From contig JAGVBU010000012.1 of the NCBI GenBank assembly GCA_020059585.1, forward strand, positions 11,079 through 75,078: a stretch of 64,000 nucleotides of DNA, in the 5' to 3' direction. The stretch is from Minisyncoccota bacterium (lineage in GTDB: Bacteria; Patescibacteriota; Minisyncoccia; UBA6257; GWB1-50-10). The notes below the pieces were generated by a model. It searched no databases, was not told the origin of the DNA, and saw nothing but the letters and a program-made list of their open reading frames with translations. This document shows, in pieces, positions 1,801-60,088 of this stretch (positions are counted from its first letter, which is position 1; the number at the start of each line of letters is the position of its first letter). The position numbers and the translations under genes are program-made.

Positions 1801-3009
1801 TTATTTTTTCTTTTTTCTCAGAAACGCGGGAATTTCCCATGGCTCTTCCTGATCAAGCGCTGCTTTCGGCTCCTTCTCTTTTTCTTTCGTAGCATGCTGA
1901 CGATCCTCTCCTCTTTCTTGTTGTTTTTCTTTCTTCGAAAGGATATCCGGCACATCGGAAACTTTCTCCCCGCTTGAGAAGAAAAGCGTTGGAGTAAGCC
2001 GAGATGCTGACACAACCCCGTTAAATCCCGTCGCAACCACCGTTACCTTCAAACTCTTATCTTTCAAGGTCTTGTCATAATACGCACCGAAAATAACTTT
2101 AGCGTTAGGATCAAGATTCGAAGTTACTGCTTTCGCGATATCATTAATTTCCGACATCTTGAGATCCTTCCCTCCCGCGACAGTAAAGAGAACCCCTTTC
2201 GCCCCATCAATAGAAATTTCGACGAGTGGAGAACGTATTGCGCCATTCACCGCTTTCACACTCCGTTCCTGCCCCGCAGACATTCCTATGCCTATAAGCG
2301 TTGTTCCCGCATCGCGCAAAATTGCTTTTACATCGGCAAAATCCACATTAATAATCCCCGGAACATTTACCACCTCAGTCACCGCAAGCACGGCCTGTTT
2401 TAATATTTCATCGACAAATCCGAATGCCTTCACAATCGATGTTTCCTTGTCGATGAGACTGAAAATCCTGTCGTTTGGAATAATGATAAGCGAATCAACC
2501 TTATCCTTGATGCGGTGAAGTCCGTCCTGCGCGATTGATGATCTCTGTGCCCCTTCAAACGCAAAAGGTTTCGTCACCATCGCCACAGTGAGAATTCCCT
2601 TTTCTTTTGCAACTTCCGCAACCACGGACGCGCCAAGCGTTCCCGTGCCGCCACCCATTCCCGCCGTCACAAATACCACATCCGCGCCTTCAAGCGCTTC
2701 TCCTATTTCAGAGCGGTTTTCCTCTGCCGCCTGTTTTCCTATTTCAGGATTCATTCCCGCGCCAAGTCCTTTCGTGAGCGCGCGTCCGATATATATTTTC
2801 TTATGCGCCATGACGCGATCAAGATCCTGCGCATCAGTATTGATTGCGATAAACTCAACGCCACGCATGCGATCCCCTTCCATCATCCGCGAGATTATTT
2901 TTCCTCCCGCGCCCCCGATTCCTATCACTTTCACGTGGGCAATAGGCGCACGCGGAGGAGTTTTTTGGACGGATTGTCTTCTTAAGGTTTTATGTTCTCT
3001 TTTTTTCAT
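1801..3009 (-). CDS. ftsZ: Cell division GTPase FtsZ
   Basis: Tubulin/FtsZ motifs VIGIGGAGG and AGMGGGTGTLGA, plus a C-terminal lysine-rich tail. Confidence 0.95.
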   Translation of the reverse strand: MKKREHKTLRRQSVQKTPPRAPIAHVKVIGIGGAGGKIISRMMEGDRMRGVEFIAINTDAQDLDRVMAHKKIYIGRALTKGLGAGMNPEIGKQAAEENRSEIGEALEGADVVFVTAGMGGGTGTLGASVVAEVAKEKGILTVAMVTKPFAFEGAQRSSIAQDGLHRIKDKVDSLIIIPNDRIFSLIDKETSIVKAFGFVDEILKQAVLAVTEVVNVPGIINVDFADVKAILRDAGTTLIGIGMSAGQERSVKAVNGAIRSPLVEISIDGAKGVLFTVAGGKDLKMSEINDIAKAVTSNLDPNAKVIFGAYYDKTLKDKSLKVTVVATGFNGVVSASRLTPTLFFSSGEKVSDVPDILSKKEKQQERGEDRQHATKEKEKEPKAALDQEEPWEIPAFLRKKKK

Positions 3010-3120
3010 CTCATTAGAAAATTATTTTATATTCGACGCGCCTCCCTCTTTTTATTTTTATATTCATGTTTAGTCATCATTCTCCCCGTCTTTTTTCACG
3101 GGAGATATACGATATGTATA

Positions 3121-4341
3121 TTACGGAATAAAATTTTTGAAAAAATTTCTCATCGCGCCCCCGATTCCTGACATTGACGGTCCCCCTCCCGAATCTCCCA
3201 CAACGACGAGTCCAAGCGCCGTCGCAAACTCTGGATCATCAAGCAGCTCCTTGTGGGTTGGATTCATAATTTCAAAAGGACTCAATTCGGGAAATCCCAT
3301 CTGCGTATGGAATTTTAGTTCTTGCCGCACAAGATCCGTAATTCCCGGAAGCTTCGCCCCTCCTCCGGTGATAACTACCCCCGCGGGAAGCTGTATGCTC
3401 CGTCCAAGAACTTTGAGCTCATTATTTACAAGCTCGAGAATTTCCGCAAGTCGTACCTCTATTATTTCAGCCAAGAAACGTTTTGAGACCTCTCCCTTGT
3501 TCGCGGGATCGAATTCAGAAAGCGGGATCACGTCTTTTCTCCCCACCTCCTTTGATATCGCGTATCCATATGTAAGTTTTATTTTCTCCGCGGAATCGAA
3601 CGAAATTCTGAGCCCCATCGCAATATCGTTTGTCACGTGCCGCATACCTATCGGGATGCTTTTTGCGTAAGAAACCTTGTTCTCCTCATATACCACGAAT
3701 GAAGTGGTGTCGAATCCGAAATCGATCATTAACACTCCCAGATCCTTCTGTTTTTTTGAAAGCACCGCGCGGGCCGTCGCGAGAGGATTGAAAACTATAC
3801 CCCCTATCCGCACCCCCACGTGTCCCAATATCTTTAGAAGAAGATTTGTCTGCGGAGCAAACGATTCCACAATAAGCGTACTCACTTCAAGACGATTCCC
3901 TGTCATGCCAATCGGATCATGAATATCACCCACATCATCAACGAAAAACTCCCGCGTGATATTATGAATAACCATATAATTAGGCTGGAGCTTCACCGCT
4001 TGTGATGCCTGAATAACGCGATCAACATCATCTTGCTGTATTTCTCTATCCGCCCGCGCAACCGCGGCAATCCCCCGCGAATTCCTTACCCGGATATGTT
4101 CACTATTTACGTTCACAAAAACATTCTGCGTAACTTTTTTGGAAATATTCTGGAGATCAAGAACAAGCTCTCTTAATATTCTCGTCGCCTCCTCGGGATC
4201 AACGAGCACTCCCTTATGAAAACCCGACGAAGGATGTTTCACCACCGCAAGAACAGAAAGTTGTCCGTTTTTTCTTTTTTCGGCAACAACACATTTTATA
4301 TATAGGGATCCAATATCAAGACCGGTGATAATGCTCGGCAT
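3121..4341 (-). CDS. ftsA: Cell division protein FtsA (actin-like ATPase)
   Basis: N-terminus ITGLDIGSLYIKCVV, actin-fold ATPase, position immediately upstream of ftsZ. Confidence 0.9.
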   Translation of the reverse strand: MPSIITGLDIGSLYIKCVVAEKRKNGQLSVLAVVKHPSSGFHKGVLVDPEEATRILRELVLDLQNISKKVTQNVFVNVNSEHIRVRNSRGIAAVARADREIQQDDVDRVIQASQAVKLQPNYMVIHNITREFFVDDVGDIHDPIGMTGNRLEVSTLIVESFAPQTNLLLKILGHVGVRIGGIVFNPLATARAVLSKKQKDLGVLMIDFGFDTTSFVVYEENKVSYAKSIPIGMRHVTNDIAMGLRISFDSAEKIKLTYGYAISKEVGRKDVIPLSEFDPANKGEVSKRFLAEIIEVRLAEILELVNNELKVLGRSIQLPAGVVITGGGAKLPGITDLVRQELKFHTQMGFPELSPFEIMNPTHKELLDDPEFATALGLVVVGDSGGGPSMSGIGGAMRNFFKNFIP

Positions 4342-45009: not shown

Positions 45010-48000
45010 TTAGTCCTTTTTTATTCCCACCCAGACGTCCCATTCATCGATCTTTGTCTGGATCTCCGCGTCTATCTTCGGAGAACGTATTATTGTTGAA
45101 GATTTCGCCCCTACGTCCTTCTTTAGTCGCGTCATATGTTTCTCCGCCACAAACTGTATTTCCTCCGAACCGTGTACATAAAGCGTGATCGTGTCCTTCA
45201 TGCGAAGTCCCGCGTCCTGTCTAAGATCTTGGATAATGCGCACAAGCTCGCGGAAAAGCCCTTCTTCGCGAAGCGCGTGGGTAACGACAGTATCAAGAAT
45301 GACCGTTTCGCCAAGATTCTCTTGGAAGATCACCTCTTTCACGTTTATTTCATCCTTTAATATCTCAAGATATTTGGAGTCGCGCGCGGAAAGATTTGTT
45401 TTTTCGGAAGAAATCGTGATGGAAGCAAGAGGCTGACGGACCTTAATCCCCGTCTCCGCCCGTTTTGCGAGCGCGGCACTTGCAATCACGCGAACCGACT
45501 CCATTTTTTCAAACATCTTTAGCGCCTTTTTTGCTCGCGCGGAATCTCCTCGGGGCCATTCCTCAAGGTGAACTGACGTCTTTTTCTGCGGCAATGAGAG
45601 ATAGAGCGCCTCCGCGAAAAAAGGAGTAAAGGGCGCAAGGAGTTTTGAAATCTCAAAAAGCACATGCCCCAAAACCCTTGAAGCGACCATGTGGTCTTTT
45701 TTATTTTCAGGACGCTGAAGCCTCTTTCTCGACCGGCGTATATACCAACGGGAAACATCTCCTACAAAGTTTTCAATGTCTCTCGCGGCGCCTCCCACGT
45801 CATACGCGTCCAACGCGCGAGTTGCACGCGCAGACGTCTCTGAAAGGCGATCTAATATCCACAAATCAAGAAGCGTGCATTCCGATTTCGTGATTCTTTT
45901 TGCGCACGCGCTCTTGTCCGCATACAAATCAAAAAAGAGAAAAGAGTTATAAAGAAGGGAAAAGAGCTGACGTGATACTTTTGAGATATCCGCTTCATCA
46001 AAACGCTTTGGCTCTCCCGGAGGATTCACGGTGTAGAAATACCATCGGGACGCGTCAACTCCGTATTTTGCAATCATATCCCATGGACTTACTACATTTC
46101 CCCTTGATTTCGACATCTTCTGTCCATTCTTGTCGAGTACGAGTCCAAGGGATATTACATTTTTATACGGAGCCTCTTTTCCGAGAATCGCGGAAACCGC
46201 GAGAAGTGTGTAAAACCATCCTCTCGTCTGATCCATCGCCTCTGAAATATAATCAGCGGGATATGGAAGATTTTTTTTGGTTCCCTTTTCGAAAGGATAA
46301 TGCACTTGCGCGAACGGCATTGCTCCCGAATCGAACCATACGTCGGCAACTTCCGGAATACGGGACATTATTCCCTTCGCGCATTTCTCACATGGGAATT
46401 GCACCGCGTCTATGTAGGGACGATGCATATCAAAGCCTCCGGTGGCGTCACGCGGACCGCTGCGTATCGTCTCCTTCTCAAATCCCGCGTTTTTGACGTA
46501 ATCAACGCCCCGTTTCTCCTTCTCTTCAAGCTGGTCCTCAGTTGACCATCCCTTCGCAATGGTATGGAGCATGTATACAAGTCCATCGTGCGTTACTATA
46601 AGTATTTTTTTGTGGGAATGTTTTTTTTCAACATCGGAAAGAAACTCATACACCCGCCTCCTTAGATCTGTGTGATTTTCCCCATTCGGCGTTCTCTTCG
46701 TAAATTTTTCGGCGCGGTTTCCGTAATACGCGGCATACGACGCGTAGGGCTTTCCATTGAAGTCGCCAAAATCAAATTCGCGCAAGCGCGGATCAAAATG
46801 CACTTCCTTTATCCCGAGCGCCTTCGCCACTATCTCGGCGGTCTGCTTTGTGCGGGCAATATCGGAGGCGAATATAATATCAATTTTTTCCTTTTTCAAA
46901 ATACGCGCGCTTTTTTCAACTTGAGTCACTCCTTTCAGCGTAAGCGGGAGTTTTTCCGGTTCCGGCCAGCAATTAATAAGATGTTTTGTATTATTCTCGG
47001 CTTCCCCATGCCTCATGAATACATAAGAATTCGTACTCTTCCCAATCGCGTCACCAAATTCCTCCGCGGATTTCACGACGCGTATCGCGCTACAGGAATT
47101 ACACTCCCACACTGGAAGCGGGGTTCCCCAAAAACGTTCACGGGATATTGCCCAGTCCTTCACCTCGCGAATCCATTCCCCAAATCGTCCATCCTTCAAG
47201 TGGTCCGGAATCCAGCGTATTTTTTTGTTTTCTGAAATAAGTTTTCCGCGAAGCGAACTCATCTTTATAAACCATGAATTCCTCGCGTAATAGAGCAGCG
47301 GAGAACTACAACGCCAACAAAAAGGATATTCGTGCTTATATTTTTTCTCGCTGAAAAGATTTCCGGACTTTTCGAGCGCGTCAATGACATATGCCTCCGT
47401 TTTAGGATTCTTTGCCGGCATTCCCCCAAAATGAGGAATTTCTTGAAGAAAATTCCCCGCCTCATCAACAGTGTGGATTGCGGGAAGCCCAATTGCCACC
47501 CCAAGATTATAATCGTCCTCCCCGTACATCACCGCGGTATGCACAACTCCCGTGCCGTCCTCCGTGGTTACAAAATCCGCAGCATATACTTTGTAAGCCT
47601 TCTCATCCGTATCATTGTCTTTTATCGCCCGTATATCGAAAAGGGGCTCATATTCGATACCAAGAAGATCTTTTCCGTTAAGAGTAATCAGCGTCTTGTA
47701 TTCGGTGTGAAGCACGGAGTCAATCAGGTTTTCCGCCAAAATGTAGCGTTCTCCGGTATTCTTAATATTTACTACCTGATATTTGATATCCTTCCCCACC
47801 GCAAGAGCGACATTTCCGGGAAGCGTCCACGGCGTTGTCGTCCACGAAAGGATATAGGTATGCTCATCCGCGACAAAATCAGTTCCAATCTTCTGCCCTT
47901 TCTTCACTTTAAATTTTATATATACGGAACGGTCTTCCACCTCCTTATACCCTTGCGCAAGCTCGTGTGAAGAGAGCGCGGTTCCGCATCGCGGACACCA

Positions 48001-48558
48001 CGGCACCACCTTGTGTCCCCTATAGAGAAGTTTTTTCTTCCATGCTTCATGAAAAATCCACCAGAGTGTTTCAATGTACGAATTTTTGTATGTGATATAA
48101 GGATTCGCGAGATCGAGCCAGAAACCCATACGGACCGTAAGTTTTTCCCACTCGTCTTTGTATGTCCACACCGATTCCCTGCATTGCTCGTTGAACGGAG
48201 CGATGCCGAATTTTTCAATGTCCTTTTTTGTGGAAAAACCAAGCTTCTTCTCCACCTCAAGCTCAACGGGAAGCCCGTGCGTATCCCACCCCCCCTTTCT
48301 CGGAACATAAAAGCCGCGCATCGTTTTATATCGGAGAACAATATCTTTGAAAGAGCGGGCAAGTACATGATGGATACCCGGACGGCCGTTTGCGGTAGGA
48401 GGACCCTCAAAAAACACAAACTCTTTTTTCGTCCGGTTTTTTAAGAGTGAGCGGGTGAAAATATCGCTCTCCCGCCAGAATTCAAGCACTTTTTCCTCAA
48501 CTTCGGGAAGCGAAAATTTTTGGGTGTTTTTGAGCATATATATTTCTTTATGTCCCAT
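45010..48558 (-). CDS. ileS: Isoleucyl-tRNA synthetase with an inserted histidine-phosphatase (PGAM-like) domain
   Basis: HIGH-like PPTANGRPGIHH, CP1 editing domain, WCPRCGT zinc motif, KMSKS. A ~190-aa insertion (aa ~508-705) carries RHGEAENN and ILIVTHDGLV, the two catalytic-histidine motifs of the histidine phosphatase superfamily. Confidence 0.9.
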   Translation of the reverse strand: MGHKEIYMLKNTQKFSLPEVEEKVLEFWRESDIFTRSLLKNRTKKEFVFFEGPPTANGRPGIHHVLARSFKDIVLRYKTMRGFYVPRKGGWDTHGLPVELEVEKKLGFSTKKDIEKFGIAPFNEQCRESVWTYKDEWEKLTVRMGFWLDLANPYITYKNSYIETLWWIFHEAWKKKLLYRGHKVVPWCPRCGTALSSHELAQGYKEVEDRSVYIKFKVKKGQKIGTDFVADEHTYILSWTTTPWTLPGNVALAVGKDIKYQVVNIKNTGERYILAENLIDSVLHTEYKTLITLNGKDLLGIEYEPLFDIRAIKDNDTDEKAYKVYAADFVTTEDGTGVVHTAVMYGEDDYNLGVAIGLPAIHTVDEAGNFLQEIPHFGGMPAKNPKTEAYVIDALEKSGNLFSEKKYKHEYPFCWRCSSPLLYYARNSWFIKMSSLRGKLISENKKIRWIPDHLKDGRFGEWIREVKDWAISRERFWGTPLPVWECNSCSAIRVVKSAEEFGDAIGKSTNSYVFMRHGEAENNTKHLINCWPEPEKLPLTLKGVTQVEKSARILKKEKIDIIFASDIARTKQTAEIVAKALGIKEVHFDPRLREFDFGDFNGKPYASYAAYYGNRAEKFTKRTPNGENHTDLRRRVYEFLSDVEKKHSHKKILIVTHDGLVYMLHTIAKGWSTEDQLEEKEKRGVDYVKNAGFEKETIRSGPRDATGGFDMHRPYIDAVQFPCEKCAKGIMSRIPEVADVWFDSGAMPFAQVHYPFEKGTKKNLPYPADYISEAMDQTRGWFYTLLAVSAILGKEAPYKNVISLGLVLDKNGQKMSKSRGNVVSPWDMIAKYGVDASRWYFYTVNPPGEPKRFDEADISKVSRQLFSLLYNSFLFFDLYADKSACAKRITKSECTLLDLWILDRLSETSARATRALDAYDVGGAARDIENFVGDVSRWYIRRSRKRLQRPENKKDHMVASRVLGHVLFEISKLLAPFTPFFAEALYLSLPQKKTSVHLEEWPRGDSARAKKALKMFEKMESVRVIASAALAKRAETGIKVRQPLASITISSEKTNLSARDSKYLEILKDEINVKEVIFQENLGETVILDTVVTHALREEGLFRELVRIIQDLRQDAGLRMKDTITLYVHGSEEIQFVAEKHMTRLKKDVGAKSSTIIRSPKIDAEIQTKIDEWDVWVGIKKD

Positions 48559-54102: not shown

Positions 54103-54423
54103 GGGGATGACGGGCCTCGACAATGTGGCCTCTCCGCAGACTGCGTGCCGAGCTCGAATATCTCGTAAAACTGTCCGAACAAACAATAACTGCCAACAAA
54201 ACAGCAGTTCCGGCGTTCGCCTTCGCGGCATAACGCTCATCGGGCCCAAGGTCTCATAGGGATCACCCGGTGTTATATCTGAGACTCGTTCCGTAAAAAC
54301 CGCTTTGCATATACGGAATCAAAGACGCGAAGCACCATTGTTTCGGACGTTAGTCCAAAAACTACGCATGTAGAGTGTCTGTGAAGAACTCATTGGACGC
54401 CGGTTCAACTCCGGCCATCTCCA
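54103..54423 (+). ncRNA. ssrA: tmRNA (ssrA), ~321 nt
   Basis: 5' end GGGGATGACGGGCCTCGAC (consensus GGGGnnGAnnGGnnTCGAC). 3' tRNA-like end GGACGCCGGTTCAACTCCGGC-CATCTCC-A with a G3:U70 pair. Candidate tag ORF GCC AAC AAA ACA GCA GTT CCG GCG TTC GCC TTC GCG GCA TAA (ANKTAVPAFAFAA*) at 54192-54233. Adjacent to smpB. Confidence 0.85.
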
Positions 54424-55948
54424 CATCTTGTACATTGGGATCAATAACCTGTTTAAAAACCCTTAAAGGAAGGGATAATTCTGCGGTTCCAAAACCATTT
54501 TGAGGATCGTAGGCGAGTTTTGATTCAAATATAATCTTGAATATCAATCGTTTTTCGGATAAATCCTCTTTTTCCCATTGTGTATGTGGGTTCTTTAGTA
54601 TTTCAAAAACTTTTTCGAGGGCGGTTTCAAAGCTTATAGATAATTTTTGTTGAGTGCCATTAATTCGTTCTTCGAGTACTTTTCTTTCCTCGGAAAGCCT
54701 TTCTATCTGCTGTTCATATTCCTGAATTAGCGTTTCTTTTTTTGATTTAGAAACCCGATCCATAAAACCGTCCACCTCTCCTAGTATTTCTTTGAGGCGA
54801 TTCTTGTCCTTTTCTTCACGCTTTTTAACTTCTCCCACTTTTTCATTCCAGATATCGAGTGTTATGGCTTTTGTTAGTTCAAGCACACCCGGCTTAGGTT
54901 TTATATGCCTTAAAATCGCCCCAAAACTGCCCTCTATAACGCTTTTAGGCACCCCTTTATTCCTCATAAGACAACTTACAGAAGCACACCTATAATAGCC
55001 GAATTTTGCATTTCTACCTCTACTCCAACTTGCAGTGTATGGTTTCCTGCAGTGTTCACAAAGAACGAATCCACGAAGGGGAAAGTCGGGGTTAGCGTCT
55101 TTCCTTGTTTGAGTCCGGACTTTGCCCAAGAGTTTTTTCTGAATTTTTTCAAAAGTTTCTAAACTTATAAGCGGTTTATGGTGTCCCTTTCTCCGTGATA
55201 CCTCCCAAGGAAGATATTCAACGTAGCCAGCGTAGATTGAACGCATCAGAAGACGTTTCACATCTTCTACATACGGTTTTTTCCCTTTGCGCTTTCCATA
55301 ATAGTTTTTTGAAACAAGGAATCGCAACACGTCCATCTGCTCGTATAGCTCTCCTGAGGCGTATTTTTCCAATGCTTCGCGTATAGTGGTCGCTTCTGGT
55401 TCCGTAGAAACCAATAGTTTGCCGTGTATCGGGTCCTTTTTTTGTACATACCCGGGAGGAGGATAAAACGGCCAATATCCTTTTTCTAAGCGAGCTTTTT
55501 GCTTTTGAATAACCTGACGCTTATTCTGCTCTCGTTCTAATTGCCCCTGGGCAGCAAAAATCGTTTCTACAAATGCGCCCTCGGGACTATCATCAAAATT
55601 ATAATTGAGACACTCGGGCTTTAATTCACGCGCACGAAACTCACGTCGTAGATTCCAATGGAAAATGGTGTCTCGAGCAAATCGTTTTAGATCGTCAAAA
55701 ATTACAACGTATTTTTTGTGTCTATTTTTATCTGCATAATCGAGTAAGGACCGCATTGCTGGCCGATTCATAAAATCTCCGCCCCCACTAAAGCTGTCTC
55801 GAAATACCCGTTCTATCTCGTATCCTTTCGTCCGTGCATATTCACGACAACGATGTTCCTGACTATCTAGCCCGTGTCCATCGTTCTTCTGTCTTTCGGA
55901 AGAAACACGGCAGTATATAAGTGCGAATGTTTTCTGCATATACATCAT
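54362..55948 (-). mobile_element. Large serine recombinase (integrase) whose C-terminal coding region overlaps the last 62 nt of tmRNA
   Basis: N-terminal catalytic domain YCRVSSERQ (catalytic Ser), recombinase domain, Cys-rich zinc ribbon (CEHCRKPYT...YYRCASVSC) and coiled-coil; 528 aa. Confidence 0.85.
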
Positions 55949-56082
55949 TCTAAATCTTTAAAGTAATTATCCAATACTTTCCTCGCTATTGCATAAATAG
56001 CGCCTCGAAGCTCTTCGAGTTCTTTGTCGGATAAATTATTTAGATCGGGGGCGATCTTTTTACACTCATCGAAGGTTAACAT
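55945..56082 (-). CDS. 45-aa ORF translationally coupled (ATGA overlap) to the serine recombinase; possible recombination directionality/regulatory factor
   Basis: MLTFDECKKIAPDLNNLSDKELEELRGAIYAIARKVLDNYFKDLE; its stop overlaps the recombinase start. Below the ORF-track threshold and found by hand. Confidence 0.3.
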   Translation of the reverse strand: MLTFDECKKIAPDLNNLSDKELEELRGAIYAIARKVLDNYFKDLE

Positions 56083-56471
56083 AGTGGCAAGAACAACAAA
56101 TAAAAAACGCCATTTTGGCGCTATTCCGATCTCTTAAGCGCCGAAGTAAACGGGCGATTAAGAGGAATAATTAGATTTGTTGTTTGTGCCGAAACGCTGG
56201 TTTCCGCACTAAGTTAACTCCCCCTGATTGATATTAAATTTTTAACTTTTTTAGTATAACACTTTCGTGCTAATATACAAACACAACTGAATAGCCATTA
56301 GGCAAACCTAACCCGTCGAGAAATCGGCGGTATGGTCCAAAAAACGGTTCAACGTACTAAGCTCCTAGTCAGAGCACGTTGAACCGTCATACGGGGAAAC
56401 CTGTATGGGTCCGCAAGGATCGCTGGCTGGGAGCTTTGTGTTTTCCCGCCAGCAACGAAAAACAAAATAAA

Positions 56472-56621
56472 ATGCCAAACTGGTTGCAAATAGTCGTTTT
56501 CATAATAGTCGGCTTCTCGCTGTTTTGGGGCGGAATTTATATTTTCTCCTGTATCAAAAGTGGTGAAAAATTAACTTGGAAAGGTCTCTTCGGTGCGATA
56601 ATCGGATCTATGTTCAAATGA
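56472..56621 (+). CDS. Small (49-aa) single/double-TM protein
   Basis: MPNWLQIVVFIIVGFSLFWGGIYIFSCIKSGEK... Confidence 0.3.
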   Translation: MPNWLQIVVFIIVGFSLFWGGIYIFSCIKSGEKLTWKGLFGAIIGSMFK

Positions 56622-56791
56622 AACAAAATGAGTATAAACTAATCGCTTTCTGGCTGTTCATTCTTCACTGGAGTTTTGTTATTGCTATAGCGATAAAATC
56701 AGAATACTTTTCCGGTTGGATTAAGTGGATTGTGTCTATATCACTTCTCGCCGCGGTTGTCTTTTATGTGTCGAGTGGTGAGAAAAAGTGA
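56576..56791 (+). CDS. Small (71-aa) 2-TM protein, overlapping the previous ORF
   Basis: Two hydrophobic helices; follows the preceding small ORF. Confidence 0.3.
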   Translation: MERSLRCDNRIYVQMKQNEYKLIAFWLFILHWSFVIAIAIKSEYFSGWIKWIVSISLLAAVVFYVSSGEKK

Positions 56792-57000
56792 ATATACCCC
56801 TTTGAAAAACTGATTTATTTTTCAAAAAATCAAACTGAAAAAACACGGCATTTGCTGTGTTTTTTCTTAAAATCTAGGTTTTTTAACCTAAAAACCTGTC
56901 GAAGTGTTTTACAACAGTAAAATTACTTATTTTTGGTCAAAAATGGCGCGGCGCATAATAAAAGGAGTTTACACGGCGCCGTCAAAAGGTGTAGAAAAAA

Positions 57001-58581
57001 CTACACTTTCGTTTTTTGTAGCTCGCTCAAGCAACCTACCGGTATAACTCCGTTTCTTGTGCTATCTTCCTTATCTCCGGTTCTAATAATACCGACAACG
57101 GATCCGGTTTTATTCAAGAGTGGTCCACCACTCATTCCGCCTGATATATTTTTTCCTATCATAATAAGATTCACGCCATTTCTTACGCGCCGCCCAACAC
57201 ATTTATCGAAAAATGTATATGGATCCATACCGGCGCCGTATTCAGGAAACCCCACCGCGATTAGGTCGGCTCCAACACTTGGTTCAATGATGTCTTTCTT
57301 AAGCGGGTATTCTTTCTGCCCACTTCCTGTGATTTTTAAAACTACTAAATCAATTGCTTTGGGTGCTTCTGCAATTTTTTCTAAAGAGAAGCGCGTGGTG
57401 ATCGAATCAGACCTAAAAGCCTTAAGTGCTGTACAAAAAACGTGCCCACAGGTGACGATTCCATACCCCTCTAAATCAAAACCTGTTCCTTGGTGATATC
57501 CACCCCCACAAGATTCGTCACACTCCAAGATCCATAAAGCTTTATAAGCCTTTTCTACATCTCCTAAAACATATCTAGGAGGCATACCAATAGCGCTACA
57601 GAATGAATTTTCCAATTTTTGATATATTCTATTTTCTTCTCCTCTTATAAATCTGATAAAGCTAATTTTCCCTTTTATGGTTTTGATTATGTTTTTCTCC
57701 GTCTTTTCATTTTCTTGAAATATTTTTTGAGCCCCGTCGGACCCATATTTTCTAACAAGAAAAATTAATGTTCTTATGTTTCTAATAAAATCGCGACCAA
57801 CATTCGTAAATTCATTCACAGTCAATCCGGTAACACGCTGTCTTTGTTTTTTTGTTTTTAATCTTGTCTTTTTTTCGTTAACAACAAACGAATTCTCTTT
57901 TATGAGATTTTCAAGAGTGCTACCAATGCAACCGTCTCCGTCAACAATACTTTGTCCAAACCTTTTTTCTGTTGTCGAAAATGTAATATCATCGGCGTAC
58001 CTTGTATAAAAACATCGGTTCTTAATAGCTAATCCTTGAATCTCGCTATCCAATCTCGAACAAACTATATTAGATAATATTGGAGACGTTGGCGCTCCTT
58101 GTGGCAGACTGCCATCAACACAACAAATATTTGCGACGCATTCGGCGACATTAGGGGGTAAATTATAAGGATTCGCCATCAGCACGCCTCTTACTCTTTT
58201 ATCAGATATAGATTGAAAAAAATCGCTCAGATCCAGGTTAAAAACAAGTTCTTTTCTTTTGTGTTTATCGGAATTCGTAAGTATAGTTTTATCCCTACAA
58301 AAACCGTGAGCTGGAGCCTTCTGTTTATATATTAAATATAAGCACTTAGAAAGTCTTCGTTGTATATTTTTTAAATACGGAATCGGTGCTCTTATGTCTC
58401 TGAGTCCACCCGACTTTTTTCTTATCTGGAATGTTTTATAAAACATTCCCTGTTTTCGATTCATTAAGGCTTTGAGCAGCTCTCTCCTAATACCTAAATA
58501 ATCAGCAACGTCGTCCGTTGTTTTTAGGCTCAAAAAGTCATTTTTTCTTTTTTTTTCTAATTCGTTTCTTGGCGTTCCCAT
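57001..58581 (-). CDS. Retron-type reverse transcriptase fused to a C-terminal trypsin-like (S1) serine-protease domain
   Basis: RT motifs: KKSGGLRDIRAP (motifs 1/2), FNLDLSDFFQSI (A), LPQGAPTSPILSNI (B'), YTRYADDITF (C, YADD), QRVTGLTVN (retron-specific VTG). C-terminal ~190 aa has the His/Asp/Ser triad context GIVTCGHV...DLVVLKI...GMSGGPLL (compare GDSGGP). Confidence 0.8.
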   Translation of the reverse strand: MGTPRNELEKKRKNDFLSLKTTDDVADYLGIRRELLKALMNRKQGMFYKTFQIRKKSGGLRDIRAPIPYLKNIQRRLSKCLYLIYKQKAPAHGFCRDKTILTNSDKHKRKELVFNLDLSDFFQSISDKRVRGVLMANPYNLPPNVAECVANICCVDGSLPQGAPTSPILSNIVCSRLDSEIQGLAIKNRCFYTRYADDITFSTTEKRFGQSIVDGDGCIGSTLENLIKENSFVVNEKKTRLKTKKQRQRVTGLTVNEFTNVGRDFIRNIRTLIFLVRKYGSDGAQKIFQENEKTEKNIIKTIKGKISFIRFIRGEENRIYQKLENSFCSAIGMPPRYVLGDVEKAYKALWILECDESCGGGYHQGTGFDLEGYGIVTCGHVFCTALKAFRSDSITTRFSLEKIAEAPKAIDLVVLKITGSGQKEYPLKKDIIEPSVGADLIAVGFPEYGAGMDPYTFFDKCVGRRVRNGVNLIMIGKNISGGMSGGPLLNKTGSVVGIIRTGDKEDSTRNGVIPVGCLSELQKTKV

Positions 58582-58591
58582 ACTCTATCTT

Positions 58592-58719
58592 TGGGGAATA
58601 TAAGATTCTTGAAACATAAAACATCTATAAAACACAAAACGCGTAAACCGCGAAGCCAATATTGTGCCATTTAGGCAGGACCGCGAATACACAGCCCGAA
58701 GGCAATCTTATATTCCCCA
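58592..58719 (-). ncRNA. Candidate retron msr/msd non-coding RNA flanked by a1/a2 inverted repeats
   Basis: Perfect 16-nt inverted repeat tggggaatataagatt (58592-58607) / aatcttatattcccca (58704-58719) encloses 96 nt with hairpins (GCC-UUCG-GGC, CGCG-GUUUA-CGCG). There is a G immediately 3' of a1 (branching-G position) and the a2 repeat lies 12 nt upstream of the RT start codon. Confidence 0.6.
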
Positions 58720-58775
58720 CCATAGTATGCGCCAAAGAAAATGTGAATTCAAACCACTTATTTAAGAAGAGACGC

Positions 58776-59675
58776 CTATTCTGTAAAAGGAAGTTTTATT
58801 TGTACTGCCGCACTGCGATGATCTAATACTTTGTTAATTGAGTATTCGGTCTTGATCTGTCCATTTGTAAGAAATTGTTTTCTTCTTAAGAAAACTTTTA
58901 AAACATCGTCCTTTGCAAAATATTTCTCGTTTTTTTGAACCCTTCTCACAAAATCCGGATCGGATATTTCGGCAAAAAACGTAGAGCTTCCATCAGAAAA
59001 ACGCCACTTCCCCTCCTCCTGAAATGAAATGTTTACTATCTGTAGATTTGTTTCAATTTCTCTTTCGTCAATTAATTCCTCTTCGGCTTCTGGGGCTGTA
59101 AAATATTCTGCTTCCTCTTTTGTTATTTCTATTTTTTTCCCGTCGTGCTCAAACTTTACCTTATCAACACCCTCTCTAGAAAGTGGTGCGGATATTACAG
59201 CTTCAATACTCTTTCTTATATTTAAAAATCTAAAGAGCTGGATTTCTTTCTTCGTTGCAATTTTTACTTCTCCGTTTTCTACCTCCACCTTATAATCGCC
59301 CGTATCTAATTCTACTATGCTTTTTATAGGGCGCTTTTTTAGAAACTTGATGAGACCAACAACGCCGCCAACACCGCCAAGTCCGAGAACTCCGATAAGC
59401 TCTTTGGCGTTTATTATTGCGGTTACTTCGTCGCTTCCAAAAAGTGTCTTCGCTTGATCAAGAAGACCTTGTGTAACAGAAAGTAAAACTTCTACAGACC
59501 CCGGTTCTGTTGCTTTTATTTTTACAGCGATTCTAACTCTCTCGCCGTTTAAGATTTGATTTGAGTTTTCGAATAATTCTCCCACAGCCAGTAACGCGGG
59601 CGCGAGATCTTTTACATCCATTTCATTCCGCTCAAGCGCAATTCCTCCATATCCTAGTTTAAAAAATTCATCCAT
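58776..59675 (-). CDS. Hypothetical 299-aa protein, co-oriented and immediately upstream of the retron ncRNA/RT (possible accessory or effector partner)
   Basis: No recognisable motif (a Gly-rich GLGGVGGVVGLIKFL segment). Ends 57 nt before the a1 repeat. Confidence 0.4.
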   Translation of the reverse strand: MDEFFKLGYGGIALERNEMDVKDLAPALLAVGELFENSNQILNGERVRIAVKIKATEPGSVEVLLSVTQGLLDQAKTLFGSDEVTAIINAKELIGVLGLGGVGGVVGLIKFLKKRPIKSIVELDTGDYKVEVENGEVKIATKKEIQLFRFLNIRKSIEAVISAPLSREGVDKVKFEHDGKKIEITKEEAEYFTAPEAEEELIDEREIETNLQIVNISFQEEGKWRFSDGSSTFFAEISDPDFVRRVQKNEKYFAKDDVLKVFLRRKQFLTNGQIKTEYSINKVLDHRSAAVQIKLPFTE

Positions 59676-59711
59676 ATTTCTTAAAAAGAAAAATTACCGA
59701 TAAAAATTCAT

Positions 59712-59734
59712 ATATGTGTATATTATACACATAT
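59712..59734. promoter_or_regulatory. Perfect 11-bp palindrome atatgtgtata-t-tatacacatat (candidate operator) 37 nt upstream of the 299-aa gene start
   Basis: Perfect inverted repeat with a 1-nt spacer in the divergent intergenic region. Confidence 0.4.
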
Positions 59735-59964
59735 TTTTCCCAGGATGTGTACCTATTTCTCTATTATTCCACGCAAACAAATGGTTTTTTTGTGCCTTTT
59801 AATATCGAACTTATCTCAAAAATGTATGATTCAAGCTGGTTCCAATATTTTCGAACGGTGTCCACCACTTCGCCCCTCCCACAAGGAGGGGCTTCGCGGT
59901 GCGCAGCACTGCGGAAGGAAGTGGTGAACCCCGCGTAAGTTCACTGAAGTGGGGTGTATATAAA

Positions 59965-59993
59965 TTGACATAATAAGATTTATATTATATAAT
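59965..59993 (+). promoter_or_regulatory. Consensus sigma70-type promoter TTGACA-17-TATAAT
   Basis: TTGACA at 59965-59970, 17-nt spacer, TATAAT at 59988-59993, ~95 nt upstream of the 60089 CDS. Confidence 0.55.
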
Positions 59994-60088
59994 AATAGGG
60001 CACTTTTAATAAATAAATACTGGCCGAATGGCGGTATCGATTAACAAAAAACCGGAGCAATTCGCTCTATAACCTAAGGAGGTTAGAA

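What the first reader, a model, noticed from the sequence alone, without database searches (positions are those of the whole stretch)
57001..58719. Candidate retron: RT with retron-specific VTG motif fused to a trypsin-like protease, preceded by a perfect 16-nt a1/a2 inverted repeat
The 526-aa protein has all the RT motifs, including YADD and the retron-diagnostic R-VTGL block. Its C-terminal ~190 aa carry a chymotrypsin-fold catalytic triad context (GIVTCGHV, DLVVLKI, GMSGGPL). Immediately 5' of the gene on the same strand there is a perfect 16-nt inverted repeat (58592-58607 / 58704-58719). It encloses a 96-nt hairpin-rich spacer with a G right after the distal repeat. This is the canonical a1-msr-msd-a2 layout, with the 2'-5' branching G. 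Retron RT-effector fusions are known, but I cannot verify from memory that an RT-S1 protease fusion of this kind has been characterised, and I know of none in a reduced CPR-like genome. This is a plausible abortive-infection module in which the msDNA-RT complex holds a protease in check.
Basis: partly seen in the sequence, partly recalled or inferred. Interest (0 to 1): 0.85.

Follow-up and report, generated by a model that had tools for sequence, protein, structure and literature searches.

The report
Type XI retron in a CPR bacterium
This is an intact retron of the already catalogued "type XI" kind (a reverse transcriptase fused to an HtrA-like serine protease, with its template RNA just upstream); it sits on a small mobile island next to the tmRNA gene of a Patescibacteria (CPR) genome, so it is a new member of a known family and not a new kind of system.

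Summary
ORF 57001-58581 (-) encodes a 526-aa protein with a retron RT domain and a C-terminal trypsin-like protease. A perfect 16-nt inverted repeat (58704-58719 / 58592-58607) followed by a G lies 10 nt upstream on the same strand.

The retron interpretation is also correct, but the architecture is not new. It is retron type XI of Mestre et al. 2020. The PADLOC model RT-Protease_XI matches full length (E = 9e-159), and more than 2,300 homologues exist.

The ncRNA is real. Two relatives (62% and 47% identical RTs) keep it with compensatory changes. In 34 of 45 type XI loci from many phyla, a 9-24 bp repeat encloses 85-141 nt and ends within about 30 nt of the RT start. A hairpin just after the first arm covaries (77.6% paired versus 34-54% in slid controls).

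Catalytic residues are intact: YADD, VTG, N..H, and H380/D411/S484.

The host is a Patescibacterium. The retron lies on a low-GC island of about 5.5 kb at the tmRNA 3' end, with a large serine recombinase.

I found no published mechanism for type XI. By analogy with Eco2, I infer that an msDNA complex holds the protease inactive until phage infection. Novelty: new member of a known kind. Interest is about 0.3.

The parts
57001..58581 (-). RT-protease fusion gene (526 aa plus stop), retron type XI
   Evidence: ORF. PADLOC RT-Protease_XI PDLC02960, E = 8.8e-159, covering residues 16-522 of the protein and 3-504 of the 506-position model. Pfam RVT_1 plus Trypsin_2. AF2 model with mean pLDDT 90.1.
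57592..58545 (-). Retron reverse-transcriptase domain (about residues 13-330), including the helical region after the palm
   Evidence: Best solved relative is retron Eco2/Ec67, E = 4.5e-50 over residues 13-323; Foldseek E = 5e-28. Invariant in 25 homologues: N103..H107 (region X), D117, Y195, D197, D198, T251, G252.
57988..57999 (-). YADD catalytic motif (residues 195-198)
   Evidence: Read from the sequence. Y195, D197 and D198 are invariant and A196 is present in at least 90%.
57826..57834 (-). VTG (retron region Y, residues 250-252)
   Evidence: Read from the sequence. T251 and G252 are invariant and V250 is present in at least 90%.
57004..57564 (-). HtrA/DegP-like (S1C) serine protease domain without a PDZ domain (residues 340-526). 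Catalytic codons: H380 at 57442-57444, D411 at 57349-57351, S484 at 57130-57132.
   Evidence: Trypsin_2 6.4e-13. Domain model pLDDT 92.8, pTM 0.90. Foldseek hits to DegP, DegQ, DegS and MarP with TM 0.75-0.80, E about 1e-10. H, D and S are invariant in 48 sequences.
58592..58719 (-). Retron ncRNA (msr-msd), 128 nt from a1 to a2
   Evidence: IR. Fold z = -4.4. Conserved with compensatory changes in L001 and L002. Same layout in 34 of 45 type XI loci. Top hit in the window of a covariance model built without it.
58704..58719 (-). a1 arm (5' arm of the RNA)
   Evidence: Both-side changes that keep pairing occur at 5 stem positions among three relatives.
58592..58607 (-). a2 arm (3' arm), ending 10 nt before the RT start codon
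58703..58703 (-). Candidate branching (priming) G, immediately 3' of a1. It is left unpaired when CUU (58699-58701) pairs with AAG (58608-58610).
   Evidence: Read from the sequence. A G at or near this position, in an (A)UUG context, recurs in the family alignment. The branch itself is inferred and not shown.
58678..58697 (-). Conserved msr hairpin 1 (8 bp, loop UAUU)
   Evidence: On a structure-blind MAFFT alignment of 35 type XI loci: 77.6% of cells paired versus 34-54% with the partner slid; covariation score 0.549 versus at most 0.216; 0 of 500 shuffles reach it; 7 of 8 pairs show both-side changes.
58665..58677 (-). msr hairpin 2 (UGCC-UAAAU-GGCA)
   Evidence: MFE and centroid fold. Kept in L001 (ACCUAAAUGGU). 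An 'AAnGG/AAUGU' motif is near-conserved in the family.
58608..58664 (-). Probable msd (template) region; its boundaries are not determined
   Evidence: Inference from canonical retron geometry, in which reverse transcription starts next to a2 and runs 5'-ward. Only weak hairpins are predicted here. The length and end point need RT-DNA sequencing.
54362..55948 (-). Large serine recombinase of the island that carries the retron. Its 3' end overlaps the tmRNA 3' end.
   Evidence: Pfam Resolvase, Recombinase and Zn_ribbon_recom. phrog_95 integrase 4e-67. tmRNA at 54103-54426. GC is 0.35-0.39 over about 54400-59800 versus 0.43-0.47 in the flanks.

Best explanation
This is a complete, apparently functional type XI retron carried on a serine-recombinase island of about 5.5 kb, integrated at the 3' end of the tmRNA gene of a Patescibacteria (CPR) bacterium.

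Shown in silico:
- One gene encodes a clade-8 retron RT fused to an HtrA-like serine protease, with all catalytic residues intact.
- Directly upstream on the same strand lies a 128-nt ncRNA. It is closed by a 16-bp a1/a2 stem and has an unpaired G after a1 and a family-conserved 5' hairpin.

Inferred from established retron biochemistry, and from the census statement that validated ncRNAs include type XI:
- The RT binds the msr hairpins.
- It primes from the 2'-OH of G58703 and copies the 3' part of the RNA into a short msDNA, probably no more than about 55 nt.

Inferred by analogy with the closest solved relative, Eco2 (an RT-TOPRIM fusion whose msDNA scaffold cages the nuclease until the phage nuclease DenB degrades the msDNA):
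- The RT-msDNA/RNA complex keeps the protease domain inactive.
- A phage-induced change to the msDNA releases it.
- The protease then cleaves essential host proteins, phage proteins or both, aborting the infection.

The protease substrate and the trigger are unknown.
For: Identity:
- PADLOC RT-Protease_XI matches full length at E = 8.8e-159, versus 1e-113 or weaker, RT-only matches to types XII and I-C.
- Pfam gives RVT_1 plus Trypsin_2.
- The nearest PDB chains are retron RTs, led by Eco2 at 4.5e-50.
- More than 2,300 homologues carry the same two domains.

Integrity:
- N103..H107, D117, YADD, VTG and H380/D411/S484 are invariant or nearly so in 25-48 homologues and are all present here.
- The models are confident, with pLDDT 90-93 and a DegP-like fold at TM about 0.8.

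ncRNA:
- There is a perfect 16-bp IR and the fold has z = -4.4.
- The same element sits upstream of the 62%- and 47%-identical RTs, with compensatory substitutions in a1/a2 and hairpin 1.
- In 34 of 45 type XI loci the IR is 9-24 bp, encloses 85-141 nt and ends within about 30 nt of the predicted RT start. In 27 of 45 loci the IR score reaches the 95th percentile of shuffles.
- Hairpin 1 covaries.
- A covariance model built from 31 other loci places its best hit in the 128 kb searched exactly here, in register.

Literature:
- Type XI is defined in PMC7736814.
- Validated type XI ncRNAs are stated in 10.1101/2024.01.25.577267.
- The Eco2 caging mechanism is described in PMC12916289 and PMC12405507.

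Island:
- The evidence is the GC dip, the recombinase overlapping the tmRNA, and the same placement next to a tmRNA 3' end in L001.
- In L028 the system sits on a serine-recombinase island at tRNA-Glu.
Against: - No experiment: msDNA production, the 2'-5' branch, protease activity and phage defence are all unobserved for this locus.
- I found no paper in the held library reporting a defence phenotype or a substrate for any type XI retron.
- The independent covariance-model hit is weak on its own (15.2 bits, E = 0.84).
- No Rfam family matches the ncRNA.
- No convincing promoter was found. The only sigma-70-like match before the ncRNA (58747-58719) is 9/12, would start transcription inside a1, and such matches are no more frequent than in shuffles.
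- The msd half is AT-rich and lacks the long stable hairpin typical of many retrons.
- The Eco2 analogy transfers an autoinhibition mechanism from a nuclease to a protease domain without direct evidence.
Confidence: 0.85

Rival explanations
1. It is a type XI retron, but with a non-canonical trigger logic. The RT makes little or no msDNA in uninfected cells, and reverse transcription or its product is induced by infection, as reported for type VI retrons. The cDNA would then activate the protease or its translation instead of restraining it.
For: A preprint reports that type VI retrons do not accumulate msDNA and that reverse-transcribed ssDNA derepresses translation of the effector (10.1101/2025.10.22.683967, listed). 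In the window, a2 ends only 10 nt before the start codon, so the ribosome-binding region abuts or overlaps the a1/a2 stem. Gaps of 10 nt or less occur in about a third of type XI loci. The predicted msd is short and weakly structured.
Against: The census paper states that validated ncRNAs include ones from clade 8 / type XI. The same paper reports almost no RT-DNA production only for clades 3 and 4, with the remaining clades intermediate. The closest characterised relative, Eco2, makes msDNA constitutively (PMC12916289). My test for systematic pairing between a2 and the start-codon region across 34 loci gave no signal.
Confidence: 0.12
2. It is a decaying or silent passenger: a retron relic on an old integrated element that no longer functions.
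For: It lies in a low-GC island with few genes. No attL/attR direct repeat of 14 nt or more was found. No good promoter was found. The relative in Parcubacteria MAG L028 has RT and protease as two overlapping ORFs, which could be a frameshift.
Against: The 526-codon ORF is uninterrupted and keeps every invariant residue of the family. The a1/a2 repeat is perfect over 16 bp. Compensatory changes between relatives indicate purifying selection on the RNA. The recombinase ORF is also intact. Serine recombinases use very short core sites, so the absence of a long repeat is expected (established knowledge).
Confidence: 0.06
3. The upstream gene 58776-59675 (PADLOC PDC-S42 / NCBIfam LAPAL family) is a third component of the system, making it a three-part retron and not a single-gene type XI.
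For: It is on the same strand, ends 56 nt before a1, and lies in the same low-GC island. The best promoter-like site on this strand (59751-59722, 10/12) lies upstream of it, so co-transcription is possible. PADLOC lists the family as a defence candidate.
Against: tblastn found no homologue in any of the 162 related loci fetched by then (L001-L162), including all 44 other type XI loci used in the inverted-repeat survey. The two closest relatives have different neighbours: PIN_12 on the opposite strand in L001, and a short ORF plus Peptidase_S24 in L002. Homologues occur alone in temperate phages, for example Lactobacillus phage A2 ORF19 between endolysin and integrase. Type XI is defined as a single-gene system (PMC7736814; the PADLOC note 'single gene').
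Confidence: 0.04
4. It is not a retron. The RT belongs to another class (group II intron, DGR, Abi/DRT), and the inverted repeat is a terminator or attenuator of the upstream gene.
For: Weak, sub-threshold matches to group II intron RT, Drt2 and Drt3a models exist, as expected for any RT.
Against: All 25 listed PADLOC hits are retron RT models. The matches to group II intron and DRT models are 1e-12 or weaker and far below their cut-offs. There is no maturase or endonuclease domain and no DGR repeats. The repeat is conserved upstream of the RT irrespective of the upstream gene. It has no T-tract after it.
Confidence: 0.01

Closest known systems
Retron type XI (Mestre et al. 2020, NAR 48:12632, PMC7736814; PADLOC RT-Protease_XI)
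   Same: [quoted passage not shown] The model matches full length (E = 9e-159). The ncRNA lies immediately upstream on the same strand, as in the type XI loci I surveyed.
   Different: Nothing in the architecture differs. The host phylum (Patescibacteria) is not among those discussed in the type XI survey I could read ('Patescibacter' and 'CPR' have 0 occurrences in 10.64898/2026.05.14.725207). The protein is only 35-47% identical to most other members. Mestre et al. reported no recognisable ncRNA for the type, whereas here the ncRNA is clear.
Retron-Eco2 / Ec67 (type I-C, RT-TOPRIM fusion; PDB 9lm3, 9i2f, 9s1f)
   Same: It is the closest solved structure of the RT domain (4.5e-50; 31-32% identity). 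It belongs to the same RT clade 8. It is likewise a minimal single-protein retron with the effector fused to the RT C-terminus. It is the source of the mechanistic analogy: msDNA cages the effector, and a phage nuclease degrades the msDNA and releases it.
   Different: The effector is a TOPRIM RNase that cuts tRNA, not a protease. The ncRNA is different. Trimer formation and caging have not been shown for type XI.
Retron type XII (RT-TIR fusion)
   Same: It is the next-best PADLOC and NCBIfam match over the RT part (1e-113; NF042941 at 1e-97, below its cut-off), with the same clade and the same single-gene logic.
   Different: The C-terminal domain is TIR, not a protease. The match stops at about residue 330.
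HtrA/DegP/DegQ/DegS/MarP (MEROPS S1C) proteases
   Same: The C-terminal domain has the same fold (TM 0.75-0.80) and the same order of catalytic His-Asp-Ser. These enzymes are typically regulated allosterically and by oligomerisation, which fits an on/off effector.
   Different: There is no PDZ domain and no signal peptide, so the protein is cytoplasmic and fused to an RT. Sequence identity is only about 20-25%. Substrate specificity cannot be inferred.
[quoted passage not shown]
   Same: They have a related RT clade and compact upstream ncRNA candidates flanked by a1/a2.
   Different: Those lineages lack the protease and use separate accessory genes (WYL, DnaB_C). The window has the canonical fused protease.

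Membership tests
Retron (general) | RT of the retron clade with region X (NAxxH-like), YxDD and region Y (VTG) | tested here: met
   N103-S-D-K-H107, Y195-A-D-D198 and V250-T-G252 are present and invariant or nearly so in homologues. All 25 listed PADLOC hits are retron RT models. The PDB neighbours are retron RTs.
Retron (general) | Adjacent ncRNA (msr-msd) closed by the a1/a2 inverted repeat, with an unpaired priming G after a1 and msr hairpins | tested here: met
   There is a 16-bp perfect IR with a G at 58703. The fold has z = -4.4. The element is conserved with compensatory changes. The layout is family-wide and hairpin 1 covaries.
Retron (general) | Production of msDNA: 2'-5' branched RNA-DNA made by the RT | not testable with these tools
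   This needs expression and gel or sequencing analysis. The only indirect support is the census paper's statement that validated ncRNAs include ones from type XI.
Retron type XI | Type-specific RT-protease profile matched over the full length | tested here: met
   PDLC02960 scores 527.7 bits, E = 8.8e-159, covering residues 16-522 of the protein and 3-504 of the 506-position model. PDLC02959 gives 3.6e-156.
Retron type XI | [quoted passage not shown] | tested here: met
   Trypsin_2 at residues 365-498. H380, D411 and S484 are invariant in 48 sequences. The domain has a DegP-like fold. It is a single uninterrupted ORF.
Retron type XI | No separate conserved accessory gene (single-gene system) | tested here: met
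   The upstream LAPAL/PDC-S42 gene has no homologue in the 162 related loci fetched by then. Neighbours differ in L001, L002 and L028.
Anti-phage defence system (abortive infection) | Protects a population against phage; effector activity is required | not testable with these tools
   No cultured host exists. I found no published type XI defence assay in the held library. Placement on a mobile island next to another defence-candidate gene is only circumstantial.
Group II intron / DGR / Abi-DRT reverse transcriptases (considered and rejected) | Family-specific RT profile above its cut-off, plus a maturase/En domain, template/variable repeats or DRT-specific partners | tested here: not met
   group_II_RT_mat scores 45.5 bits (cut-off 300), Drt3a 43.4 (cut-off 200) and Drt2 37.5 (cut-off 390). 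No such extra domains are present.

The most novel reading that the evidence does not exclude
The evidence does not exclude that two points are unreported. First, canonical type XI retrons across many phyla may share one compact ncRNA family: a1/a2 of 9-24 bp, an interior of 85-141 nt, an (A)UUG priming context, and a covarying 5' hairpin with a UUAYCUGCG-like loop and 3' side. This family has not been formalised as a model. Second, a Patescibacteria sub-lineage of these retrons may travel on small serine-recombinase islands that target the 3' ends of tmRNA and tRNA genes. That would be a first look at retron-based abortive infection in ultra-small episymbiotic bacteria, where killing the infected cell has unusual population consequences.
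Probability: 0.35. Interest if true: 0.45.

Novelty: new member of a known kind. Interest (0 to 1): 0.3.

Why it matters
As a discovery of a new system it does not matter much, because RT-protease retrons were catalogued in 2020 and are detected automatically by PADLOC-type tools. It has modest value in three ways.

1. Type XI is among the retron types for which I found no published trigger, substrate or structure. This locus is a compact (1.73 kb), fully intact example with an unusually clean ncRNA, which makes it a convenient construct.
2. The family-wide ncRNA regularities found here could seed a covariance model for a type that two surveys could not annotate.
3. It documents a retron on a mobile island in a CPR genome. 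That adds to the sparse picture of anti-phage defence in these reduced bacteria.

Tried and rejected
- **Rfam.** No family matches the ncRNA, even at E <= 1.
- **Sequence motif search.** The window's GGCTTCGC/TTCGC motif is shared only with the two closest relatives. I therefore switched to a structure-based survey.
- **a2 pairing with the start-codon region.** In the window and L001, a2 can also pair with the start-codon region, because a1 'UGGGGAA' resembles 'AUGGG(G)AA', which could act as a translational switch. Tested on 34 loci by duplex energy against shuffles, the z-scores scatter around zero, and only 3 loci fall below -2. Rejected as a family feature.
- **LAPAL/PDC-S42 as a retron partner.** There is no co-occurrence in the 162 related loci fetched by then. 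Rejected.
- **att direct repeats.** I searched for repeats of the tmRNA 3' end at the far island border and found nothing of 14 nt or more. The right border is placed only by GC content, at about 59,700-60,000.
- **Promoter scan.** It found nothing beyond chance.
- **Source record and organism name.** The host was inferred from ArgRS relatives instead.
- **Census supplements.** A search for type XI entries found none under the terms allowed.
- **LOOT RNA literature.** A search found nothing useful.
- **Independent covariance model.** R1 finds the right site as its top hit, but at E = 0.84. It supports the ncRNA assignment but does not establish it by itself.
Full report
**1. The observation**

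The minus-strand ORF 57001-58581 encodes 526 aa. Pfam finds RVT_1 (residues 53-255, 3.3e-20) and Trypsin_2 (365-498, 6.4e-13).
- YADD at residues 195-198 (57988-57999).
- RVTGL, with VTG at residues 250-252 (57826-57834).
- GIVTCGHV, containing H380.
- DLVVLKI, containing D411.
- GMSGGPL, containing S484.

The inverted repeat is exactly as reported. TGGGGAATATAAGATT (58719->58704 on the minus strand) pairs with AATCTTATATTCCCCA (58607->58592), 16/16 complementary with 96 nt between the arms. The next base after the 5' arm is G (58703). The 3' arm ends 10 nt before the ATG.

This is not a chance repeat. In 230 shuffles of comparable 510-nt upstream regions the longest perfect stem was 13 nt and the mean was 8.2. 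The 146-nt RNA folds at -50.4 kcal/mol against -33.0 +/- 4.0 for dinucleotide shuffles, z = -4.4.

**2. What the protein is**

Against the PADLOC defence models the protein matches RT-Protease_XI end to end. PDLC02960 gives E = 8.8e-159 and 527.7 bits, covering residues 16-522 of the protein and positions 3-504 of the 506-position model. The next hits (RT-TIR_XII, RT-Toprim_I-C) cover only the RT part. NCBIfam agrees: the TIR- and Ec67-type retron fusions match over residues 16-335 only, below their cut-offs, while group II intron, Drt2 and Drt3a models score far below theirs.

The nearest solved chains are retron RTs, led by Eco2/Ec67 (4.5e-50 over residues 13-323). A confident AlphaFold model (pLDDT 90.1) gives the same ranking by Foldseek: Eco2 at 5e-28, then Ec86, Eco7 and Ec83.

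The C-terminal 187 residues, modelled alone at pLDDT 92.8, superpose on DegP, DegQ, DegS, MucD and MarP at TM 0.75-0.80. The domain is therefore an HtrA-like S1C chymotrypsin fold without a PDZ domain.

A search of 5.8 billion proteins returned more than 2,300 relatives. All 120 best hits carry the same two Pfam domains and are 491-619 aa long. In alignments of 25 and 48 of them, the invariant columns include N103, H107, D117, Y195, D197, D198, T251 and G252, and the triad H380, D411 and S484. The window protein has every one of these.

**3. What is known about this architecture**

Mestre et al. [quoted passage not shown] They note that the type lacked a recognisable ncRNA module and hypothesise a role in cleaving target peptides.

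Khan et al. (10.1101/2024.01.25.577267) predicted ncRNAs by three criteria: an inverted repeat longer than 8 bp, a priming G near the start, and hairpins close to the RT. They state that some validated ncRNAs come from subtypes with no previously predicted ncRNA, '(e.g. clade 8, type XI)'.

A 2026 survey (10.64898/2026.05.14.725207) still lists type XI among the types without an experimentally validated msr/msd model. It describes the canonical form as the single RT-protease ORF.

I found no paper in the held library that reports a defence phenotype, trigger, substrate or structure for type XI. The architecture is therefore known and automatically recognisable. Its mechanism is not known.

**4. 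The ncRNA is real and belongs to a family-wide pattern**

The two closest relatives of the RT (P0002 at 62% and P0003 at 47% identity) were located on contigs L001 and L002. Both have an upstream inverted repeat in the same place: TGGGGAATATA/TATATTCCCCA with 106 nt between the arms, and CGGGGCGTATTTA/TAAATACGCCCCG with 116 nt between them. A three-way RNAalifold consensus has 34 pairs, 11 of which keep pairing through changes on both sides. It recovers the a1/a2 stem, hairpin 1 and hairpin 2.

I then fetched 160 further loci encoding relatives and analysed the 45 type XI loci: 42 of the fetched loci whose match covers the protease domain, plus L001, L002 and the window.
- In 34 of 45, the best repeat in the 330 nt upstream is 9-24 bp long, encloses 85-141 nt and ends between -15 and +32 nt of the predicted start codon.
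- Four more have the same element further upstream.
- In 27 of 45, the repeat score reaches the 95th percentile of shuffled controls.

Directly after the 5' arm most loci have a G in an (A)UUG context, then a U/C-rich stretch, then a hairpin of about 8 bp whose loop and 3' side read roughly UUAYCUGCG. I scored this helix on a MAFFT alignment of 35 loci made without any structural information:
- 77.6% of cells form standard pairs, against 34-54% when the 3' partner is slid by 1-3 columns.
- The covariation score is 0.549, against at most 0.216 in the slid controls.
- 7 of 8 pairs show changes on both sides.
- None of 500 column shuffles reaches the observed values.

As an independent membership test I built a covariance model from 31 loci, excluding the window and its two close relatives. 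I searched the whole window on both strands with filters off. The best hit is 58659-58713 on the minus strand, in the correct register over the priming G, hairpin 1 and hairpin 2. It scores only 15.2 bits, E = 0.84, so it supports the assignment without proving it.

The 3' half of the window's ncRNA (about 58608-58664) is AT-rich and weakly structured. By canonical retron geometry it should be the msd template, giving an msDNA of at most about 55 nt. This is inference.

**5. Context**

The named relatives of the window's ArgRS are all Patescibacteria: 'Patescibacteria group bacterium' at 56%, Harrisonbacteria at 54%, and Woykebacteria and Curtissbacteria at 43-45%. Housekeeping genes (ftsZ, recG, rnj, rny, ileS, argS) fill the rest of the window. 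The 'CPR-like' guess is therefore right.

The retron lies in a stretch of GC 0.35-0.39 (about 54,400-59,800) flanked by DNA of GC 0.43-0.47. The stretch begins at the 3' end of the tmRNA gene (54103-54426, 126.8 bits), which follows smpB. It contains, in order:
- A large serine recombinase whose ORF runs into the tmRNA 3' end (54362-55948, minus strand).
- A LOOT RNA (56305-56421).
- Two small ORFs.
- The RT-protease.
- The ncRNA.
- A 299-aa gene (58776-59675).

In L001 (SmpB 57% identical) the RT-protease stop codon lies 58 nt from the 3' end of a tmRNA gene, in the same relative orientation. In the Parcubacteria MAG L028, a type XI retron sits about 3.8 kb from a large serine recombinase that overlaps tRNA-Glu. 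The CPR members therefore appear to travel on small islands that target tRNA-like genes.

The 299-aa neighbour has three labels: PADLOC PDC-S42 (2.6e-94), NCBIfam 'LAPAL motif-containing putative phage structural protein' (1.2e-76) and phrog_3243. It has no homologue in any of the 162 related loci fetched by then. It occurs alone in temperate phages; in Lactobacillus phage A2 it is ORF19, between the endolysin and the integrase. I treat it as a separate island passenger, not a retron component.

**6. How it most likely works**

Shown: the parts list above, its integrity and its conservation.

Inferred from general retron biochemistry: the RT recognises the msr hairpins, primes on the 2'-OH of the unpaired G58703, and copies the region next to a2 into a short branched msDNA.

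Inferred by analogy with Eco2, the nearest characterised relative and also a single-protein retron with a C-terminal effector: there, a branched msDNA scaffold assembles a trimer that cages the TOPRIM domains, and the phage nuclease DenB degrades the msDNA and frees them (PMC12916289, PMC12405507). By the same logic, the msDNA/RNA-RT assembly would keep the HtrA-like protease off until infection disturbs the msDNA. Proteolysis of essential proteins would then abort the infection. HtrA-family proteases are classically switched by oligomer state and loop ordering (established knowledge), which makes such control plausible.

The main rival is a type VI-like logic, in which cDNA is made or acts only after infection (10.1101/2025.10.22.683967). 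The very short a2-to-ATG distance keeps a translational role for the stem open. However, my test for a2/start-codon pairing across the family was negative.

**7. Verdict**

The finding is real and correctly read as a retron. It is a canonical member of type XI, so the architecture is not new. New elements are limited to three things: the host phylum, the ssrA-island context, and a clean example of an ncRNA pattern that I could show is shared and covarying across type XI but that has not, as far as I could find, been formalised. Novelty is 'new member of a known kind' and interest is about 0.3.

Noticed in passing
window 56305-56421 (+): A full-length LOOT RNA (Rfam RF03000) scores 84.8 bits against a gathering score of 46.4. 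It lies inside the low-GC island between the recombinase and the retron, and it overlaps the start of an 80-aa ORF (56379-56621). Its function is unknown, and a literature search gave nothing useful.
   Followed up: partly
window ~59862-59955 (either strand): A GC-rich, strongly structured stretch sits in otherwise AT-rich intergenic DNA at the right edge of the island. The plus strand folds at -63.2 kcal/mol (z = -5.3) as a three-way junction plus a hairpin; the minus strand gives z = -5.25. There is no Rfam match at E <= 1. It could be an unclassified small RNA or a recombination-site remnant.
   Followed up: partly
window 58776-59675 (-): This 299-aa protein carries conflicting labels: PADLOC defence candidate PDC-S42 (2.6e-94), NCBIfam 'LAPAL motif-containing putative phage structural protein' (1.2e-76) and phrog_3243 of unknown function. 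In Lactobacillus phage A2 the homologue (ORF19) sits between the endolysin and the integrase, which is the usual moron slot (established phage-genome knowledge). That placement argues for an accessory or defence role and not a structural one.
   Followed up: partly
window 54103-54426 (+) and 54362-55948 (-): The large serine recombinase ORF overlaps the last ~65 nt of the tmRNA gene, so the island is integrated into ssrA with the tmRNA 3' end rebuilt by island sequence. No direct repeat of 14 nt or more marks the other end.
   Followed up: partly
L001 4012-4084 (-), with the retron at 2241-3954 (+): In the closest relative, the type XI retron ends 58 nt from the 3' end of a tmRNA gene. A PIN_12 gene and smpB lie on the other side, and no recombinase lies between the retron and the tmRNA on this 4-kb contig. 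This is the same ssrA-adjacent placement as in the window.
   Followed up: partly
L028 5965-6933 and 6926-7570 (+); 559-2115 (-); tRNA-Glu 583-658: In a Parcubacteria MAG, the type XI RT and protease are two ORFs overlapping by 8 nt. This is either a natural split or an assembly frameshift. The locus lies on an island with a large serine recombinase that overlaps tRNA-Glu.
   Followed up: partly
window 45010-48558 (-): The isoleucyl-tRNA synthetase is 1,182 aa long. It carries an inserted histidine-phosphatase-like domain at residues 513-677 (TIGR03162, alpha-ribazole phosphatase, 6e-26) in the middle of the enzyme.
   Followed up: no
window 56379-56621 and 56576-56791 (+): Two small overlapping ORFs (80 and 71 aa), hydrophobic and membrane-like by eye, lie between the LOOT RNA and the retron. 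They match no family in NCBIfam or PHROGs. They may not be real genes.
   Followed up: no
45 type XI loci: window, L001, L002 and 42 of L003-L162: In about a third of type XI loci the a2 arm ends 10 nt or less before the RT start codon. The ribosome-binding region must therefore lie in or against the a1/a2 stem. This may couple ncRNA folding or processing to RT-protease translation.
   Followed up: partly
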